The notes under the pieces were generated by a model that did no database searches, was not told the origin of the DNA, and saw nothing but the letters and a program-made list of their open reading frames with translations. A stretch of 64,000 nucleotides of DNA. Source: an uncultured archaeon. GTDB taxonomy: Archaea > Asgardarchaeota > Hermodarchaeia > Hermodarchaeales > Hermodarchaeaceae. A program made the position numbers and the translations under genes. The stretch lies in NCBI GenBank assembly GCA_964347045.1, contig CAYFXC010000001.1:128001-192000 (forward strand), given 5' to 3'. The stretch's first letter is position 1; every line of letters begins with the position of its first letter. Of the stretch, positions 5,254-47,954 are shown one piece after another.

Positions 5254-5353
5254 GCCTCGGTAGCTCAGTGGTAGAGCGACAGCCTCGTAAATTCTGAAAT
5301 CGTGTTGTCGAGTAAGCTGCTGGTCGCGGGTTCAATCCCCGCCCGAGGCTCCA
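5254..5353 (+). tRNA. tRNA-Thr(CGT) with 25-nt intron at 37/38 (5290-5314); encoded CCA
   Basis: Acceptor GCCTCGG/CCGAGGC, D-arm GCTC-AGTGGTA-GAGC, CT-CGT-A loop, T-arm GCGGG-TTCAATC-CCCGC, U73, CCA; BHB helix CTCG/CGAG with TAA bulges. Confidence 0.93.
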
Positions 5354-41892: not shown

Positions 41893-42060
41893 GTAGCTTG
41901 CTCCTTATGAGGGCTCGGTTTGTCTGACTTTCGTTTGTGAACATATATTGGTTTCGTTTACCATGGGCTTTTAGGCTTAGGTAATTAATTTCGCCCAATG
42001 ATTTTTATCCTGCTGAAGGTTGTTAGGGCAGGCTAGGAACTTATGGAGTGTATACTTACA

Positions 42061-45033
42061 ATGCCTGTTTCAGAGCTTCCCAAAAAATTTGATCTTCCCT
42101 CCTTAGAAGAGGAGGTGCTAAAATTCTGGCAAAAACATCGCGTGTATGAGCAAGTAACTGAACTGCTTCTTAATCGTCCTATCTTCAAGTTTTTGGATGG
42201 TCCTCCCTACACTACTGGCGCGATTCATTTGGGTACTGCATGGAACAAAATTATGAAGGACTTGGTCCTACGGTATCGTCGGATGCAGGGGTTTCGCGTA
42301 ATCGATACTCCTGGGTTTGATATGCACGGATTACCAATTGAGGTTCATGTTGAAAAAGAACTCGGCATAAAATCAAAGCTGGAAATTGAAACGAAAATTG
42401 GCGTTGATAAATTTATTTCACGGTGCCAAGAGTTTGCTCTTTCTAATTTGGGAATTATGACAGAACAATTCCAAAGGTTAGGTGTCTGGATGGACTGGAA
42501 TCGTCCTTATCGAACGATTGATAACCCATATATTGAAGGTACATGGTATTTGATGAAACGAGCCCATGAACGGGGATTCTTGTATCGTGGATTGCGTTCG
42601 ATTGATTGTTGTGTTCGCTGCGAAACAGCTCTAGCGAAACGTGAACACGAGTACCGGACAATTGTAGATTATTCGATTTGGGTCAAGTTTCCGGTTATTG
42701 ATCGACCAAACGAGTTCATTGTTATTTGGACTACAACACCTTGGACATTACCTGCTAATATGGCCGTAATGGTGAATCCAGAGTTTGATTATGTTCGCGT
42801 TCGTGTTGAAAACGAAGTATGGATTTTGGCGAAAGGATTAGCAAATATCATTTTACAAGGGCTATTAAACAAGCCTTATGAAGTCATAGAAGTGGTCAAT
42901 GGATCGAAACTTCTTGGTCTCCGATATGAACATCCTTTGGTAGAAGAAGTCCCTCGCCAAGCTGAACTCCACAAAGATTCAAAGAAAGTTCATTCCGTGG
43001 TTTTAAGTGATGAATATGTTACTTTAGAACAGGGTACAGGTCTTGTTCATATGGCACCAGGACATGGTCCCCAAGATTTCGAAGTAGGTGAAAGGGAAGG
43101 AATACCAATTTTTTGTCCGGTAACATTTTCTGGAACTTTTTCTGAAGATGGTGGAAAATACGCCGGGATGAAAGTTCAAAAGGTAAGTGAAGTTGTTCTT
43201 GAGGATCTACGTAGGAAGGATTTGTTAGTTCATCAAGATACTATTGAGCACGAATATGCTCATTGTTGGCGATGTAATAGCCCGTTAGTCTTTCTTGCTA
43301 CTGATCAATGGTTCCTACGCGTTAGTGATCTTAGGAATGATATTATCAAAAAGAACGAGGATGTTCGGTGGGTTCCGGATTGGGCTGGTCATACATGGTT
43401 TAGAAATTGGGTACAAAATCTTCGTGACTGGTGTATCTCACGTCAGCGTTACTGGGGTGCCCCTCTTCCCATATGGACCTGTGATAAATGTGATGAAATA
43501 GAAGTGATTGGGAGCATTGAAGAATTAAATGAAAAAACTGGCAAGGTTTTCGAGAACCTTCATAGGCCATGGGTTGATGAAGCGAATTGGACTTGCATGA
43601 AATGTGGAGGTAAAATGTCGAGAGTTCGCGATGTTCTTGATGTTTGGTTAGACAGTGGTGTTGCTCCTTGGGCAACACGATGGGCGACTTTTGGCACTAA
43701 AGATTTTGATAATTGGGAAACGGCTGAATTTGTTATTGAAGGCAAAGATCAAATCAGCAATTGGTTCAACACCCTCTTCAATTCGACCATGTTAGTTGCA
43801 GACCGAGAACCGTACAAAAATGTGTATATGCATGGATTTACGAGTGACGAACAAGGTCGGCCTATGTCCAAATCTAAGGGCGTTGGAGTTCTTCCAGAGG
43901 AGATAGTGGAAAAAGTTGGAGCAGAGACTCTTCGGATTTATAGTATCAAAAGCACTGGTCCTGGCGAGGATATGCATTTTCTCTGGAAAGATGTTGAAGA
44001 TACTCGGCGTGTTCTTTTGATTTTATGGAATGTATACGTTTTTGCATCAACATTCATGAAAGCAGCGAATTTTGATCCAAAATTACACAAAATGGAGCCC
44101 AAAAATCTTCAGTATGAGGATCGCTGGATTCTTTCTCAGTTAACCTCGCTCATTAAACAAGTCACCGAACGACTAGATAAATATGAATTACCATACGTGC
44201 CTCGTTTAATGGAAGACTTTGTTGTAAAAGATCTTAGTCGGTGGTATATCAAACTCATTCGGCCTCGAACTTGGGTTAGTTCTCAGGATGAAACAAAGAT
44301 TCAAGCATTTACAACACTTTATAATGTGTTACGCACTCTTTTGGCAGTCTTAGCTCCAGTTTTACCTTTCCTAACTGAAAAAATGTATCAGGCTCTCATT
44401 CGTTCGGTCGAACCTGATGCTCCGATTAGTGTTCATATGCTTCCTTGGCCTTCTGTGGATGAGCATCTTATAGATTCTGAATTAAGCCAAGAAATGGAGT
44501 GGGTATCTGAAATCGTTGAGTCAGTACAATATGTTCGGCAGGAAGCAGGTATTAAACTTCGATGGCCCTGTCAAAGATTGATTATTGTTCCATTGAAGAA
44601 GGAATTTCAACTAGATCACTTCAGCGACGTTGTCGCTAGCCAAGCAAATGTAAAAACCGTTGAGATTCTTAAAAAAATCAAGGGTGAATCTTTACTAGAA
44701 AAGGAGCTGGCCTTTGCTACGATTTATCTCGATATTTCAGAGACTCCTGAACTTCGTGCGGAACGCCTTGCACGAGATTTGATTCGTCAAATTCAATCTA
44801 CACGGAAAAAAGAGGGTTTACATGTTACACAGCGTATCAAACTTCATGTGGCAACTAAATCACCGGAACTACGATCGGCAATAGAAAATACTTCTGAGTC
44901 TATATCCGCAAAAGTGGGGGCTTCGGTGTTAAATATCTATGAAAATTTACCAATTATGAAGGGCGCTGCCAAGGGCAAGGTAAAATTCGCTGATGGTGAA
45001 ATCCAATTTGCATTTCTTGTGCAAGATGAATAG
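42061..45033 (+). CDS. ileS: Isoleucine--tRNA ligase
   Basis: DGPPY, HLGT (HIGH), WTTTPWTLPAN, GTGLVHMAP, DWCISRQRYWG, PMSKS. Confidence 0.97.
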   Translation: MPVSELPKKFDLPSLEEEVLKFWQKHRVYEQVTELLLNRPIFKFLDGPPYTTGAIHLGTAWNKIMKDLVLRYRRMQGFRVIDTPGFDMHGLPIEVHVEKELGIKSKLEIETKIGVDKFISRCQEFALSNLGIMTEQFQRLGVWMDWNRPYRTIDNPYIEGTWYLMKRAHERGFLYRGLRSIDCCVRCETALAKREHEYRTIVDYSIWVKFPVIDRPNEFIVIWTTTPWTLPANMAVMVNPEFDYVRVRVENEVWILAKGLANIILQGLLNKPYEVIEVVNGSKLLGLRYEHPLVEEVPRQAELHKDSKKVHSVVLSDEYVTLEQGTGLVHMAPGHGPQDFEVGEREGIPIFCPVTFSGTFSEDGGKYAGMKVQKVSEVVLEDLRRKDLLVHQDTIEHEYAHCWRCNSPLVFLATDQWFLRVSDLRNDIIKKNEDVRWVPDWAGHTWFRNWVQNLRDWCISRQRYWGAPLPIWTCDKCDEIEVIGSIEELNEKTGKVFENLHRPWVDEANWTCMKCGGKMSRVRDVLDVWLDSGVAPWATRWATFGTKDFDNWETAEFVIEGKDQISNWFNTLFNSTMLVADREPYKNVYMHGFTSDEQGRPMSKSKGVGVLPEEIVEKVGAETLRIYSIKSTGPGEDMHFLWKDVEDTRRVLLILWNVYVFASTFMKAANFDPKLHKMEPKNLQYEDRWILSQLTSLIKQVTERLDKYELPYVPRLMEDFVVKDLSRWYIKLIRPRTWVSSQDETKIQAFTTLYNVLRTLLAVLAPVLPFLTEKMYQALIRSVEPDAPISVHMLPWPSVDEHLIDSELSQEMEWVSEIVESVQYVRQEAGIKLRWPCQRLIIVPLKKEFQLDHFSDVVASQANVKTVEILKKIKGESLLEKELAFATIYLDISETPELRAERLARDLIRQIQSTRKKEGLHVTQRIKLHVATKSPELRSAIENTSESISAKVGASVLNIYENLPIMKGAAKGKVKFADGEIQFAFLVQDE

Positions 45034-45044
45034 GTGTGCCAACA

Positions 45045-45052
45045 CATTTAAG
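45045..45052 (+). promoter_or_regulatory. Putative TATA box for the tRNA-Ile gene
   Basis: CATTTAAG about 30 nt upstream of the tRNA 5' end. Confidence 0.4.
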
Positions 45053-45079
45053 CCACAATAAATATCACTCACTCGATAC

Positions 45080-45225
45080 GGGCACGTGGCTTAGCCTGAT
45101 GGAGCGCCGAACTATCGTGCATTTAGCGCGAAGTGTGTATGCCTTATATGGTGTCGCTCTGAACATTCGTTTGCGAAGCCTAGGTTAGCCGGAGGTCGCG
45201 GGTTTGAATCCCGCCGTGCCCACCA
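45080..45225 (+). tRNA. tRNA-Ile(TAT) with two introns (45110-45140 at 29/30; 45149-45186 at 37/38); encoded CCA
   Basis: Spliced: GGGCACG TG GCTT AGCCTGATG GAGC G CCG^GC CT TAT A^A GCCGG AGGTC GCGGG TTTGAAT CCCGC CGTGCCC A CCA; fully paired cloverleaf, A73, bulge-helix motifs at both introns. Confidence 0.85.
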
Positions 45226-45228
45226 TCT

Positions 45229-46767
45229 TCATTTAGTTCTTCCTTTCTTTTCAAATTTCTTAGTCATAGTTTCAAAATCTTCTCCAAAAGCCGTTTCTTT
45301 AGTTGTTCGTTTTCGGACCTGAATGAAAACTGGAAACCGAGTAGCCTGGCCAACTACTAATGCTTCTCCAACACTAAGGCTTGAAATAGACGTCAAAGTT
45401 GCTTTTGTGATTTTTTCTGATGTAGCTCTAATGTGATCTAAGTCATAGGGGTTAGTAATTCTAAGAAATATGTTAGATCCACATTGTGAGAGAACTGTGG
45501 TTGAGAGTCGAACTGGTCGTTGTGAAATAATACACAAAGAGAGGTTATATTTACGACCTTCTCGGGCAATAGTTTCAATTATTCCCTTTGAAAAAGCTAG
45601 GGCACGGCGTGCTTCAGGACAGAATTGATGAGATTCCTCGAGAAACACAATTGTAGGAGGTATTTCCTCATCTCGTCTCAAGTCGAATAAATGTCTAAGA
45701 ACAGCATCGACAATGATTTGCTTCTTTTGAAGACTCACCGTTTCACTCATATCAAGTATAACTCCATGGCCAGATTTCATTAACTTCTTCCATTCTGGTG
45801 TCGAAGTCTTTCCGAAGAGATTGAGACTTTGGAGATTATCTAACCATCCCAATAGTGCTTCACGCGTTCGAGTGTTTATCGAAGGATCCTTTTCTAGCGC
45901 TTCAATCAAATCTCCTAAATCATAGGGTCTTCCTTTTCGAACACTACGTAGTGTTCGAATAATACGTGTCAGTTCACGAACCTGGATTGTTCCCATATCT
46001 GGAGAATATATCGCAAAGGATTTTGCACTCATTCGTGGTGTTGCTATCTCAACTAGAGGGCTCCGAATTACTACGAGGCGTTTTTCAATGTTTTTTCCTT
46101 TGATTTCTTGAGTGTCTGCAAACCCTGTGTATTCACCATGAACGTCAATTACAAGTAATGCTGGACGCCCTTGAGCCACTCTTCTTGATAAGAGTTCTTC
46201 GAGCATAACAGAAGCGGCATAACTTTTTCCAGCTCCACTCATTGCCAAGAGTGCAACGTGCTTTTGATACATTTTTGTCAAATCAAAAGTCGCAGGAATA
46301 TTATGAAATAGTAAATGACCAAGCTCAATTCCCTCTTCAGCAAATCCAAGAAAACGTGACAAAATTTTTGGGTCTGGTGAAGAAACAATAGCGCCTGGCG
46401 AGGGAGGATACGTAATTCGGTGAATCTGCCCATTATCAAAAATCCCTAAAGGATTTGCTTCGGCTAACACGTATTCCCATCGGTCAATAGGAAAAATCGC
46501 TCCAAAGGGTCTTCCTGACCGTGTAAATTCATGTACGGCGTCAACTTGCGAAAAATAGCGGTTCGTCTTGAATACATGCTCAACATGAGCGATGACTAAT
46601 CCTTCTTCAGTTTCAACAGAAACGTATTGTCCTACGTGAACGGGTATCTCATTCTTAGTGTTTTGTTCATCACGTTTTCCAATGACAAAGGAAATCTTTT
46701 CTGTTGACGGGCTATCTTCAGTGCATACAACAGTTCCAAGCGATTCAGAGTTCATTTGAGTCTTCAC
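45229..46767 (-). CDS. herA: HerA helicase/ATPase
   Basis: N-terminal HAS barrel; HVALLAMSGAGKSY, IDVHGEY, LEESHQF, REGRKY, SQRP. Confidence 0.9.
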   Translation of the reverse strand: MKTQMNSESLGTVVCTEDSPSTEKISFVIGKRDEQNTKNEIPVHVGQYVSVETEEGLVIAHVEHVFKTNRYFSQVDAVHEFTRSGRPFGAIFPIDRWEYVLAEANPLGIFDNGQIHRITYPPSPGAIVSSPDPKILSRFLGFAEEGIELGHLLFHNIPATFDLTKMYQKHVALLAMSGAGKSYAASVMLEELLSRRVAQGRPALLVIDVHGEYTGFADTQEIKGKNIEKRLVVIRSPLVEIATPRMSAKSFAIYSPDMGTIQVRELTRIIRTLRSVRKGRPYDLGDLIEALEKDPSINTRTREALLGWLDNLQSLNLFGKTSTPEWKKLMKSGHGVILDMSETVSLQKKQIIVDAVLRHLFDLRRDEEIPPTIVFLEESHQFCPEARRALAFSKGIIETIAREGRKYNLSLCIISQRPVRLSTTVLSQCGSNIFLRITNPYDLDHIRATSEKITKATLTSISSLSVGEALVVGQATRFPVFIQVRKRTTKETAFGEDFETMTKKFEKKGRTK

Positions 46768-46775
46768 CTTTAATT

Positions 46776-47954
46776 TTAATGAAATGGCATCCTTTCACGG
46801 CGGAGTTTTAATACACTCTGGGGATATCCTAGCCGATTGGCTAATTGTGTAAAAAGAAAATCAAGATCATGTTCAATTAACCGGGCTTGAGAGTCAGCAT
46901 CGATTAGCACAGTAGGAAGCGCAAAGCCCTCATTATTTGAAGACATTGGAAATAACATCGCGCTAACTTTCTCAACAATTCGAATTGGGTCATAAGCTCC
47001 AGTGAGAATTTCAATTCGTAAAGGATAATCAAACTTGGCCGTTCGGAGATAAATACAAACAATATTTTTGCTAGTCTGTATGCTCTCGTCGCCGGATTCA
47101 AGTGAATCATCGATATTTAATTCGTTTAATCGGAGAATTGGCGAACGTTCTCCCACGTCTAGGATTCTGAAAAATAAATCTGTGTCGTAACTGGTTCGCA
47201 AAATCGATCGATAATCCATCTGTAACAACGGTTTCAACGCGGGATATTTATTTATCAAATGTGGAAGAATTTCACCTAGAATCTTAATGAACCGTTGACT
47301 TCGACTATCTTTCACAACACCAGCAAGAAGCGTCCCAGTTTCTTGAGCTTTTTTATAGAGCTCTTCATACAGCTTTGAAATCAGTTGAAACTTGGTTGAA
47401 AACATTGACTGACTTGGTGGGCGGTCACTTAAATGTGGACTCAGAGAGCCGTCTAGTAAAAGGAGCTCTACTGGATGGTGATCTTGGACACGGATTGCCA
47501 ATTCAAGTTCTGACTTGAGTCGTTCAAGGGAAGCGCTTACGTCTGCTTCGCGCCAAGAGATGGGATTGAATTCTGCTTTTACGGTTGGGGGCGTTGTTTT
47601 TTCAGGGAAATAGATTGCTGCTACTCGGTTTGATGGAGTATATTCAAAAATAGTGGCACAAGCTCGAGTAATTACTAGCTCGATACCTCGTAGGGTTTTT
47701 TTGAGTAATCCTCCATCAACTCCACCTACACGAAGTCCGGTTAAATCTATAGGCTTCACTGAATTGGCTAATTGATTATCAACAAGATAGTTTTGGGCTA
47801 GTGGTAGGTTCTGATGAAGATTTAGCTTGTTTCGTTCACTTCGAAGAATTGAAGCAAAGGTATTTCTTTTCTTTTCATAGGCTTGAATTTGCTCAGCGAT
47901 TTTCTGAATTGCTTTATCTAGCGGCCAAAGCTCCTGAACTGATTTCATATACAT
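46776..47954 (-). CDS. nurA: NurA nuclease
   Basis: GVDGG, LLDGSL, GVVKDS, P..LIDADSQAR; directly upstream of herA. Confidence 0.9.
   Translation of the reverse strand: MYMKSVQELWPLDKAIQKIAEQIQAYEKKRNTFASILRSERNKLNLHQNLPLAQNYLVDNQLANSVKPIDLTGLRVGGVDGGLLKKTLRGIELVITRACATIFEYTPSNRVAAIYFPEKTTPPTVKAEFNPISWREADVSASLERLKSELELAIRVQDHHPVELLLLDGSLSPHLSDRPPSQSMFSTKFQLISKLYEELYKKAQETGTLLAGVVKDSRSQRFIKILGEILPHLINKYPALKPLLQMDYRSILRTSYDTDLFFRILDVGERSPILRLNELNIDDSLESGDESIQTSKNIVCIYLRTAKFDYPLRIEILTGAYDPIRIVEKVSAMLFPMSSNNEGFALPTVLIDADSQARLIEHDLDFLFTQLANRLGYPQSVLKLRRERMPFH

What the first reader, a model, noticed from the sequence alone, without database searches (positions are those of the whole stretch)
45080..45225. 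Cryptic tRNA-Ile(UAU) whose anticodon sits on an 8-nt micro-exon between two introns
Seen: a clean tRNA 5' half and 3' half separated by about 77 nt. Removing 45110-45140 (31 nt, non-canonical position 29/30; helix GCGC/GTGT, bulges CG^A and AT^G, inner hairpin ACT/AGT + TCGTGC/GCGCGA) and 45149-45186 (38 nt, canonical 37/38; helix CTTA/TAGG, bulges TA^T and TT^A, inner GGT/GCC + TCGC/GCGA) gives a perfect CCGGC/GCCGG stem with loop CT-TAT-AA, A73 and CCA. The middle exon is only GCCTTATA. Established: most archaea read AUA with tRNA-Ile2(CAU) modified to agmatidine by TiaS. UAU-anticodon tRNA-Ile is the eukaryotic solution (intron-containing, with intron-dependent pseudouridines) and is a rare exception in archaea, e.g. 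Nanoarchaeum and Korarchaeum. Inference: this probable Asgard lineage may use a eukaryote-like AUA decoding system that standard tRNA finders could miss or mislabel. The full second BHB needs the anticodon stem, so splicing may be ordered.
Basis: partly seen in the sequence, partly recalled or inferred. Interest (0 to 1): 0.9.

Follow-up and report, generated by a model that had tools for sequence, protein, structure and literature searches.

The report
Two-intron Asgard tRNA-Ile(UAU) beside ileS
This is a real isoleucine tRNA gene with the rare UAU anticodon, hidden by two introns and lying just after the isoleucyl-tRNA synthetase gene. It sits in a Hermodarchaeota (Asgard) genome whose whole family lacks TiaS, the enzyme most archaea need to read AUA. 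A few other archaea are already known to read AUA this way.

Summary
Removing 45110-45140 and 45149-45186 leaves a 77-nt cloverleaf that ARAGORN calls tRNA-Ile(tat). An exhaustive search of splice choices gives this as the clear best solution.

The gene is found in 17 of 19 genomes of the family (Hermodarchaeota, Asgard):
- Exons and the 8-nt anticodon micro-exon are essentially invariant.
- The intron-1 hairpin has compensatory changes in 8 of 9 pairs.
- One relative lacks intron 1 and reads the predicted junction as contiguous DNA.

TiaS was not found in any of the 19 family genomes with two independent queries, and there is no TilS. This genome has only two CAT tRNA genes, an initiator and an elongator-like one. 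AUA makes up 17% of Ile codons. Two EndA paralogues fit the broad-specificity (alpha-beta)2 type.

New here: the tRNA starts 46 nt after ileS. That pairing holds in all 17 family loci and in two other TiaS-less Asgard families. Most TiaS-less Asgard IleRS carry a reduced C-terminal domain.

The "eukaryote-like" label covers only the anticodon and the 37/38 intron. No Pus1/TruA-family enzyme was found.

This scan has already reported the same arrangement in other Asgard genomes. I rate it a new member of a known kind.

The parts
42043..45033 (+). ileS (isoleucine--tRNA ligase, 996 aa), ending 46 nt before the tRNA
   Evidence: TIGR00392 scores 911 bits against a cut-off of 621. Pfam finds tRNA-synt_1, Anticodon_1 and a partial DUF5915. 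The ileS-to-tRNA adjacency holds in all 17 family loci and in two other TiaS-less Asgard families.
45039..45053 (+). Conserved upstream element CCAACACATTTAAGC, a TATA-like box centred about 31 nt before the tRNA 5' end
   Evidence: Nearly identical in the 14 genus-level orthologues, with a TTTAAA/TTAAAA box at the same place in the second genus. Its promoter role is inferred.
45080..45109 (+). Exon 1: acceptor 5' strand, D-arm, position 26 and anticodon-stem positions 27-29
   Evidence: Invariant in the orthologues except position 5, where A changes to C with a compensating U68 to G change in the second genus.
45110..45140 (+). Intron 1 (31 nt, position 29/30), relaxed BHB
   Evidence: BHB scores are H 4/4, inner helix 3/3, outer helix 2/3. 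The unconstrained minimum-energy fold of the precursor forms this BHB. Eight of 9 inner-helix pairs have compensatory changes. The intron is absent in genome G018, which reads the junction as contiguous DNA.
45141..45148 (+). Exon 2: 8-nt micro-exon GCCTTATA (positions 30-37), with anticodon TAT at 45145-45147
   Evidence: Invariant in 17 of 17 orthologues. The same 8 bases are found in the ileS-linked tRNA of two other Asgard families.
45149..45186 (+). Intron 2 (38 nt, canonical position 37/38), BHB
   Evidence: BHB scores are H 4/4 (CTTA with TAGG), inner helix 3/3, outer helix 2/3 before intron 1 is removed. Present in 17 of 17 orthologues. 26 of its 38 positions are invariant, against 6 of 31 in intron 1.
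45187..45225 (+). Exon 3: position 38, anticodon-stem 3' strand, variable loop, T-arm (loop TTTGAAT), acceptor 3' strand, A73 and encoded CCA
   Evidence: U56 in the T-loop is matched by A19 in the D-loop, so an A19-U56 pair replaces the usual G19-C56.

Best explanation
This is a functional, intron-split gene for tRNA-Ile(UAU).

The precursor is probably transcribed from its own TATA-like promoter just after ileS. The heterotetramer-type splicing endonuclease EndA cuts it at two bulge-helix-bulge motifs, at 29/30 and 37/38, and the pieces are ligated. The 77-nt product carries anticodon UAU.

It is charged by the single IleRS encoded next door and reads AUA. In this family it stands in for the usual archaeal pair of tRNA-Ile2(CAU) and the agmatidine synthase TiaS, which is missing.

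Shown here: the gene, its splice junctions, its conservation, the failure to find TiaS or TilS, the two-CAT tRNA set, the two EndA paralogues and the ileS linkage.

Inferred: transcription, the order of splicing, charging with Ile, the chemical state of U34, and how AUG misreading is avoided.
For: - **Gene and cloverleaf:** Rfam tRNA hit at 39.6 bits. The spliced product is called tRNA-Ile(tat) by ARAGORN.
- **Splice choice:** it is the only solution in the genome-wide pass and the top-scoring solution in the exhaustive pass.
- **Conservation:** 17 orthologues have invariant exons and anticodon. There is a compensatory A5-U68 to C5-G68 change between genera. Intron-1 covariation exceeds 0 of 500 shuffles, with 8 of 9 pairs changed on both sides.
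- **Junction:** G018 lacks intron 1 and has the exon 1-exon 2 junction as contiguous DNA.
- **No C34-modifying enzyme:** TiaS_FLD is found in 0 of 19 family genomes but 4 of 4 archaeal controls. A full-length Asgard TiaS protein query also finds 0 of 19. TilS matches are only below the cut-off.
- **tRNA set:** my census recovers 43 anticodons, including Ile(GAT), and only two CAT genes. One is an initiator with A1-U72 and GGG/CCC in the anticodon stem. The other is elongator-like.
- **Need for a decoder:** AUA is 13.6 per 1000 codons and 17% of Ile codons.
- **Splicing enzyme:** two EndA paralogues, one catalytic-type and one matching the N-terminal/beta part. Published work reports the (alpha-beta)2 type with the L1 loop and broad specificity in Asgards (PMC5829648).
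- **ileS linkage:** ileS lies directly upstream in all 17 family loci and in two other TiaS-less families, whose tRNAs also resolve to TAT.
Against: - There are no expression, splicing or aminoacylation data.
- The genome is 88.9% complete, and my home-made tRNA census misses a few expected anticodons (Arg CCT, Leu CAA, Pro CGG). An unseen third CAT tRNA cannot be excluded.
- Similarity to the genome's own tRNA-Ile(GAU) is the highest of all its tRNAs, but only narrowly: 62 of 77 against 60 of 77 for Val and Lys.
- The outer helix of both BHBs is weak (2/3). The central helix of BHB-1 borrows D-stem and anticodon-stem bases, so the two motifs and the cloverleaf cannot all form at once.
- U34 in an Ile tRNA can misread AUG. 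A haloarchaeal U34 mutant bound AUA > AUG > AUU (PMC3895270). Nothing here shows how that is avoided.
Confidence: 0.85

Rival explanations
1. The UAU tRNA is redundant or minor. AUA is mainly read by an undetected tRNA-Ile2(CAU) whose C34 is modified by an enzyme unrelated to TiaS or TilS.
For: The MAG is 88.9% complete, and my census lacks three or four expected anticodons. Intron-rich tRNAs are easy to miss: the Rfam-based genome search missed this very gene.
Against: - Only two CAT genes were found, and both have non-Ile2 features.
- TiaS was not found in 19 of 19 family genomes with two queries, which incompleteness of 72-91% per genome cannot explain.
- No TilS was found.
- The UAU gene is under strong purifying selection. 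Its exons are invariant while the neighbouring IleRS C-terminal region falls to 61-82% identity.
Confidence: 0.07
2. The mechanism is eukaryotic in style. The 37/38 intron is kept because it is needed for pseudouridine formation at U34 and U36 in the precursor, and Psi34 restricts reading to AUA.
For: - The canonical intron is present in 17 of 17 orthologues and in the ileS-linked tRNA-Ile(UAU) of two other Asgard families.
- It is far more conserved than intron 1, with 26 of 38 against 6 of 31 invariant positions.
- Most eukaryotes encode a tRNA-Ile with Psi at the wobble position, thought to pair with A but not G (cited in PMC3895270). That this modification depends on the intron is from my own knowledge.
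Against: - No TruA/Pus1-family synthase (PF01416) was found in any of 19 family genomes, though 13 of 14 controls have one.
- Canonical introns are common in this genome's other tRNAs, so their presence here is not specific.
- BLAST did not find intron 2 outside the family.
Confidence: 0.15
3. The locus is a decaying or non-spliced tRNA relic, or it is spliced to give another anticodon, such as ARAGORN's Asp(atc) reading with one 51-nt intron.
For: ARAGORN with -i proposes Asp(atc) on the unspliced sequence.
Against: - The ATC solutions score 6.5 or less against 9.0 on BHB quality.
- The anticodon micro-exon is invariant in 17 genomes.
- The intron hairpin and the acceptor stem show compensatory changes.
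- G018 supplies a natural intron-1-less allele.
Confidence: 0.02

Closest known systems
tRNA-Ile(UAU), also called tRNA-Ile3, of Nanoarchaeum equitans and Candidatus Korarchaeum cryptofilum (PMC8450103, PMC6000648, PMC3895270)
   Same: An archaeal genome-encoded UAU anticodon for AUA that makes tRNA-Ile2(CAU) unnecessary (PMC8450103). That these two archaea lack tiaS is from my own knowledge. The Korarchaeum gene also carries an intron, and its closest relative is the same genome's tRNA-Ile(GAU) (PMC6000648), as here.
   Different: - The lineage is Asgard (Hermodarchaeota), not DPANN or Korarchaeia.
- It has two introns here, and three or four in relatives, with the anticodon on an 8-nt micro-exon.
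- It is conserved next to ileS.
- It is a family-wide trait shared with other Asgard families rather than a single-species oddity.
Eukaryotic cytoplasmic tRNA-Ile(UAU)
   Same: UAU anticodon, and an intron directly 3' of position 37 in every copy examined.
   Different: - No Pus1/TruA-family enzyme was found in the family.
- Splicing is by archaeal BHB recognition.
- There is an extra non-canonical intron at 29/30.
- The IleRS C-terminal domain does not align with the eukaryotic one.
Mycoplasma mobile tRNA-Ile2(UAU) with an adapted IleRS (PMC3575796)
   Same: Loss of the C34-modifying enzyme goes with a UAU tRNA and a changed C-terminal, anticodon-recognising domain of IleRS.
   Different: - It is bacterial, intron-less and has a bacterial-type IleRS.
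- There the change is a single residue (Arg865) and was shown biochemically.
- Here the change is a shortened or divergent DUF5915 domain seen only by sequence.
Multi-intron tRNA genes of Thermoproteales and of Asgard Atabeyarchaeia, Freyarchaeia and Jordiarchaeia (PMC11291895; bioRxiv 10.64898/2026.10.13.758758; PMC4090602)
   Same: Several BHB introns per gene at non-canonical positions (D-arm, anticodon stem, T-loop). Standard annotators under-call them. The (alpha-beta)2 EndA forms the background.
   Different: Those papers do not discuss tRNA-Ile(UAU), TiaS or Hermodarchaeota.

Membership tests
tRNA (Rfam RF00005) | Covariance-model score above the gathering threshold, and a complete cloverleaf after intron removal | tested here: met
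   39.6 bits against 29 on the unspliced DNA. ARAGORN calls the 77-nt spliced product tRNA-Ile(tat). It has U8, A14, U33, A37 and A73. C56 is replaced by U56, with A19 replacing G19.
Archaeal BHB intron | A 4-bp central helix flanked by two 3-nt bulges on opposite strands, cut after the second bulge base, with flanking helices | tested here: met
   Both introns score H 4/4 and inner helix 3/3, with outer helix 2/3, i.e. a relaxed motif. BHB-1 appears in the unconstrained minimum-energy fold. The inner helix of intron 1 covaries.
Archaeal BHB intron | A splicing endonuclease able to cut non-canonical or relaxed motifs is encoded | tested here: met
   There are two EndA paralogues of 186 and 199 aa. 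One is above the TIGR00324 cut-off with a C-terminal catalytic match. The other matches the N-terminal half and beta-subunit models. The presence of the L1 loop was not examined.
tRNA-Ile(UAU) AUA decoder replacing tRNA-Ile2(CAU) | Genomically encoded TAT anticodon | tested here: met
   The anticodon is at 45145-45147. It is invariant in 17 orthologues and is the top-scoring splice solution.
tRNA-Ile(UAU) AUA decoder replacing tRNA-Ile2(CAU) | No C34-modifying enzyme (TiaS or TilS) | tested here: met
   PF08489 is found in 0 of 19 family genomes and 4 of 4 archaeal controls. The TiaS protein query finds 0 of 19. TIGR02432 matches are below the cut-off only.
tRNA-Ile(UAU) AUA decoder replacing tRNA-Ile2(CAU) | No tRNA-Ile2(CAU) gene | tested here: inconclusive
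   Only an initiator and an elongator-like CAT gene were found among 43 anticodons. However, the genome is 88.9% complete and the finder is home-made.
tRNA-Ile(UAU) AUA decoder replacing tRNA-Ile2(CAU) | Charged with isoleucine, and reads AUA but not AUG | not testable with these tools
   Indirect only: A73, the closest paralogue is tRNA-Ile(GAU), and the gene is conserved next to ileS.
Eukaryote-type tRNA-Ile(UAU) system | Intron at 37/38 in every copy | tested here: met
   Seen in 17 of 17 family orthologues and in the two ileS-linked genes of other families.
Eukaryote-type tRNA-Ile(UAU) system | A Pus1/TruA-family pseudouridine synthase acting on the intron-containing precursor | tested here: not met
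   PF01416 is found in 0 of 19 family genomes and in 13 of 14 controls. Other pseudouridine routes (Pus7, Pus10, Cbf5 with guide RNA) were not examined.

The most novel reading that the evidence does not exclude
ileS and tRNA-Ile(UAU) form an old, co-adapted AUA-decoding pair. It combines an IleRS with a remodelled C-terminal anticodon-binding domain and an intron-bearing UAU tRNA kept right behind it. This pair replaced TiaS and agmatidine in the ancestor of several Asgard classes. The eukaryotic habit of reading AUA with an intron-containing tRNA-Ile(UAU) would then descend from this Asgard state.
Probability: 0.2. Interest if true: 0.85.

Novelty: new member of a known kind. Interest (0 to 1): 0.6.

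Why it matters
AUA is the one sense codon for which bacteria and nearly all archaea need a dedicated C34-modifying enzyme. Surveys of 167 and 217 archaeal genomes found a UAU tRNA in only two species (PMC6000648, PMC8450103).

Here a whole Asgard family does without TiaS. In my sample only 122 of 268 Asgard genomes have it. In three TiaS-less families the UAU tRNA sits directly behind ileS.

Asgards are the closest archaeal relatives of eukaryotes, and eukaryotes also read AUA with an intron-containing tRNA-Ile(UAU). The origin of the eukaryotic solution therefore becomes testable with cultured Asgards.

There is also a practical consequence. Annotation pipelines will report these genomes as lacking an AUA decoder, or will mislabel this gene.

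Tried and rejected
- **Rfam search of the whole genome.** It listed 27 tRNAs and missed this one, so I wrote my own census from acceptor, CCA and arm filters plus BHB enumeration.
- **BLAST of the gene against 22 non-family Asgard genomes.** Only 3'-half hits came back. On inspection these were Pro, Arg and Ala tRNAs and one Ile(GAT), not orthologues.
- **My first manual splice of the elongator-like CAT tRNA.** It had poor BHBs. Enumeration moved intron 1 to 30/31 with a perfect motif.
- **A C/D-box guide in intron 2.** The CTGA seen in this genome is CCGA in most orthologues, so I rejected it.
- **A tRNA behind the short IleRS paralogues of a TiaS-bearing family.** None was found.
- **A tRNA behind ileS in five TiaS-bearing genomes and in two genomes of the largest TiaS-less family.** None was found.
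- **A eukaryote-like IleRS C-terminus.** Rejected. The Hermod-type distal domain aligns with no solved IleRS, whereas the TiaS-bearing type aligns with eukaryotic and type-2 IleRS along its whole length.
- **Literature.** No paper in the searchable library combines TiaS with Asgard. The Asgard tRNA-intron papers do not mention Ile or UAU.

Full report
**What is there**

Window 45080-45225 (+) lies in a 195-bp gap between two genes. Upstream, a 996-aa ORF ends at 45033. Downstream, a convergent 512-aa ORF ends at 45229.

Rfam's tRNA model matches 45080-45222 at 39.6 bits, above its gathering score of 29. It aligns both halves of a tRNA and leaves 80 nt unaligned in place of the anticodon arm. 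ARAGORN in default mode finds nothing in the window. With introns allowed, it mislabels the locus as Asp(atc) with a 51-nt intron.

**The splice model**

These segments are 45110-45140 and 45149-45186. The product has:
- a perfect 7-bp acceptor stem;
- the anticodon stem CCGGC/GCCGG;
- the loop CTTATAA;
- A73 and an encoded CCA.

Both introns have a 4/4 central helix, 3-nt bulges cut after the second base, and a 3/3 inner helix. The outer helices are only 2/3.

I enumerated every removal of one or two segments that leaves a 5-bp stem, U33 and a purine at position 37. This gave 28 solutions:
- variants with the same TAT anticodon score 7.5 and 6.5;
- the best other anticodon (ATC) scores 6.5.

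In a genome-wide pass the locus had a single solution.

RNAfold's unconstrained minimum-energy structure of the precursor already contains BHB-1. The central helix of BHB-1 uses tRNA positions 24-27. The outer helix of BHB-2 is the anticodon stem, which is whole only after intron 1 is removed. So "intron 1 first" is plausible, but it is only an inference.

**Comparative evidence**

A DNA search of 40 relatives found the locus full-length or nearly so in 13 of 14 other genomes of the genus. It was also found in 3 of 4 genomes of a second genus of the family.

In the alignments the exons are invariant except position 5. That position changes from A to C together with U68 to G in the second genus, a compensatory acceptor-stem change. 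The micro-exon GCCTTATA is invariant.

For the intron-1 inner helix, 8 of 9 pairs have changes on both sides. 96.7% of cells are paired, against 25-46% when partners are slid, and 0 of 500 shuffles reach the observed covariation.

Genome G018 has no intron at 29/30 and reads ...GAGCGCCGGCCTTATA... as contiguous DNA. This is a natural confirmation of the junction. It carries a D-loop intron instead. G007 and the second genus have an additional T-loop intron at 59/60.

A conserved TATA-like element lies about 31 nt upstream.

**Who it is**

A pattern scan of named genome records returned 15 contigs. Most are titled Candidatus Hermodarchaeota or Promethearchaeota, including Ca. Hermodarchaeum yapensis. 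Their sequences are identical to the anonymous relatives.

**Is it the AUA decoder?**

- **TiaS.** The diagnostic domain PF08489 gave no hit in this genome or in any of the 18 other family genomes (72-91% complete). All four archaeal controls have it, as do 14 of 22 other Asgard genomes sampled. A full-length TiaS protein from a TiaS-bearing Asgard also found nothing in the 19 genomes. It gave only two marginal hits (E about 0.002-0.004) to part of its C-terminal region.
- **TilS.** Only generic PP-loop matches below the cut-off were seen.
- **tRNA census.** My census of the 2.58-Mb, 88.9%-complete genome recovered 43 anticodons. These include tRNA-Ile(GAT) and exactly two CAT genes.
  - One is an initiator, with A1-U72 and GGG/CCC in the anticodon stem.
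  - The other is elongator-like, starting GCCGAGG. It has three introns, and its anticodon sits on a 7-nt micro-exon.
- **No third CAT gene was seen.** The census lacks a few CNN anticodons, so this point stays inconclusive.
- **Codon use.** AUA accounts for 13.6 per 1000 codons and 17% of Ile codons in 932 long ORFs. A decoder is therefore needed.
- **Splicing enzyme.** The genome encodes two EndA paralogues. This fits the (alpha-beta)2 type reported for Asgards (PMC5829648).

**New context: the ileS linkage**

The upstream ORF is ileS (TIGR00392, 911 bits). The tRNA starts 46 nt after its stop codon.

The adjacency holds in all 17 family loci, even though IleRS identity over its C-terminal region falls to 61-82%. 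It also holds in two other TiaS-less Asgard families:
- a closed 2.8-Mb genome (G029);
- a closed 1.4-Mb genome (G019).

The gene downstream of ileS in those two genomes resolves to tRNA-Ile(TAT). It has the same anticodon arm, with four and three introns respectively, always including one at 37/38.

No tRNA follows ileS in two genomes of the largest TiaS-less family, or in five TiaS-bearing genomes.

**IleRS C-terminal domain**

In ten IleRS C-termini examined directly:
- the five from TiaS-bearing genomes match Pfam DUF5915 along its full length (profile 2-194, 101-146 bits);
- the five from TiaS-less genomes match only its distal part (37-58 bits) and are 26-74 aa shorter.

Across 268 Asgard genomes of at least 85% completeness:
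- 122 have TiaS.
- All 17 TiaS-bearing families have strong full-length DUF5915 matches.
- Eight of 11 TiaS-less families have only weak or partial matches.
- Two small families are exceptions, and the largest TiaS-less family is mixed.

Related genomes are not independent, so this is a trend, not a test.

The literature says this domain is required for anticodon recognition. In tilS-less Mycoplasma mobile it changed to accept UAU (PMC3575796). The Hermod-type distal domain aligns with no solved IleRS. The TiaS-bearing type aligns fully with type-2 and eukaryotic cytoplasmic IleRS. The remodelled domain is therefore derived, not eukaryote-like.

**Limits of the eukaryote analogy**

The UAU anticodon and an ever-present 37/38 intron match eukaryotes. 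However, no TruA/Pus1-family synthase was found in any of the 19 family genomes. Canonical introns are also common in this genome's other tRNAs.

How AUG misreading is avoided is open. A haloarchaeal U34 mutant tRNA-Ile bound AUA > AUG > AUU (PMC3895270).

**Novelty**

- tRNA-Ile(UAU) without the C34 enzyme is known in N. equitans, K. cryptofilum, some bacteria and eukaryotes (PMC8450103, PMC6000648, PMC3575796).
- Multi-intron Asgard tRNAs are also known (PMC11291895; bioRxiv 10.64898/2026.10.13.758758).
- I found no paper linking TiaS loss or tRNA-Ile(UAU) to Asgards.
- Earlier notes of this scan report the same arrangement in Odin-, Loki- and Hel-type genomes. My TiaS survey and the G019 locus agree with them.

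I therefore file this as a new member of a known kind. The conserved ileS linkage and the IleRS domain trend are the added leads.

Noticed in passing
window 44131-45030 (IleRS C-terminal 300 aa); L053-L062: IleRS of TiaS-less Asgards (5 of 5 examined) match only the distal part of DUF5915 and are 26-74 aa shorter. IleRS of TiaS-bearing Asgards (5 of 5) have the full domain. Across 268 genomes the trend holds for 17 of 17 TiaS-bearing families and 8 of 11 TiaS-less families. The Hermod-type distal domain aligns with no solved IleRS.
   Followed up: partly
G000:C1:238246-238427 (outside the window; L052): An elongator-like tRNA(CAT) with three introns, at 30/31, 37/38 and 59/60. Its anticodon sits on a 7-nt micro-exon, ACTCATA. 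Anticodon micro-exons are therefore not unique to the Ile gene.
   Followed up: partly
window 45098-45099 and 45205-45207: The D-loop has G18-A19 and the T-loop reads TTT (U56). The universal G19-C56 tertiary pair is therefore replaced by A19-U56. Both are invariant in the 17 orthologues.
   Followed up: no
window 45149-45186: Intron 2 is much more conserved than intron 1, with 26 of 38 against 6 of 31 invariant positions, including its unpaired loop. A CGCTC-type stretch recurs in the 37/38 introns of the two other ileS-linked tRNA-Ile(UAU) genes: CGCTC in G019 and CGCTT in G029. It is complementary to the D-arm GAGCG. This is unexplained.
   Followed up: partly
L014-L017 (G007, G015, G016, G018): Introns turn over within one family. 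A T-loop 59/60 intron is present in one genome of the genus and in the second genus. A D-loop intron replaces the 29/30 intron in G018.
   Followed up: partly
window 5254-5353: A second tRNA in the window. It scores 57.4 bits in Rfam, and ARAGORN with -i calls it Thr(cgt) with a 13-nt intron, although its length (100 nt) implies more inserted sequence.
   Followed up: no
window 45229-47954 (- strand): A HerA-like helicase (DUF87 and HerA_C) and a NurA nuclease gene pair converge on the tRNA. HerA is syntenic in the genus.
   Followed up: no
G079:C2:65181-65483, G083:C2:11176-11475, G084:C14:151172-151471, G086:C460:1092-1397: One TiaS-bearing Asgard family carries a second, shorter IleRS of about 995 aa. 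It has only the distal DUF5915 part and sits beside a full-length IleRS. No tRNA follows it.
   Followed up: partly
G000:C1:239537-239797 (outside the window; L040): The beta-like EndA paralogue lies inside a cluster of intron-containing tRNA genes spanning C1:236282-240981.
   Followed up: no
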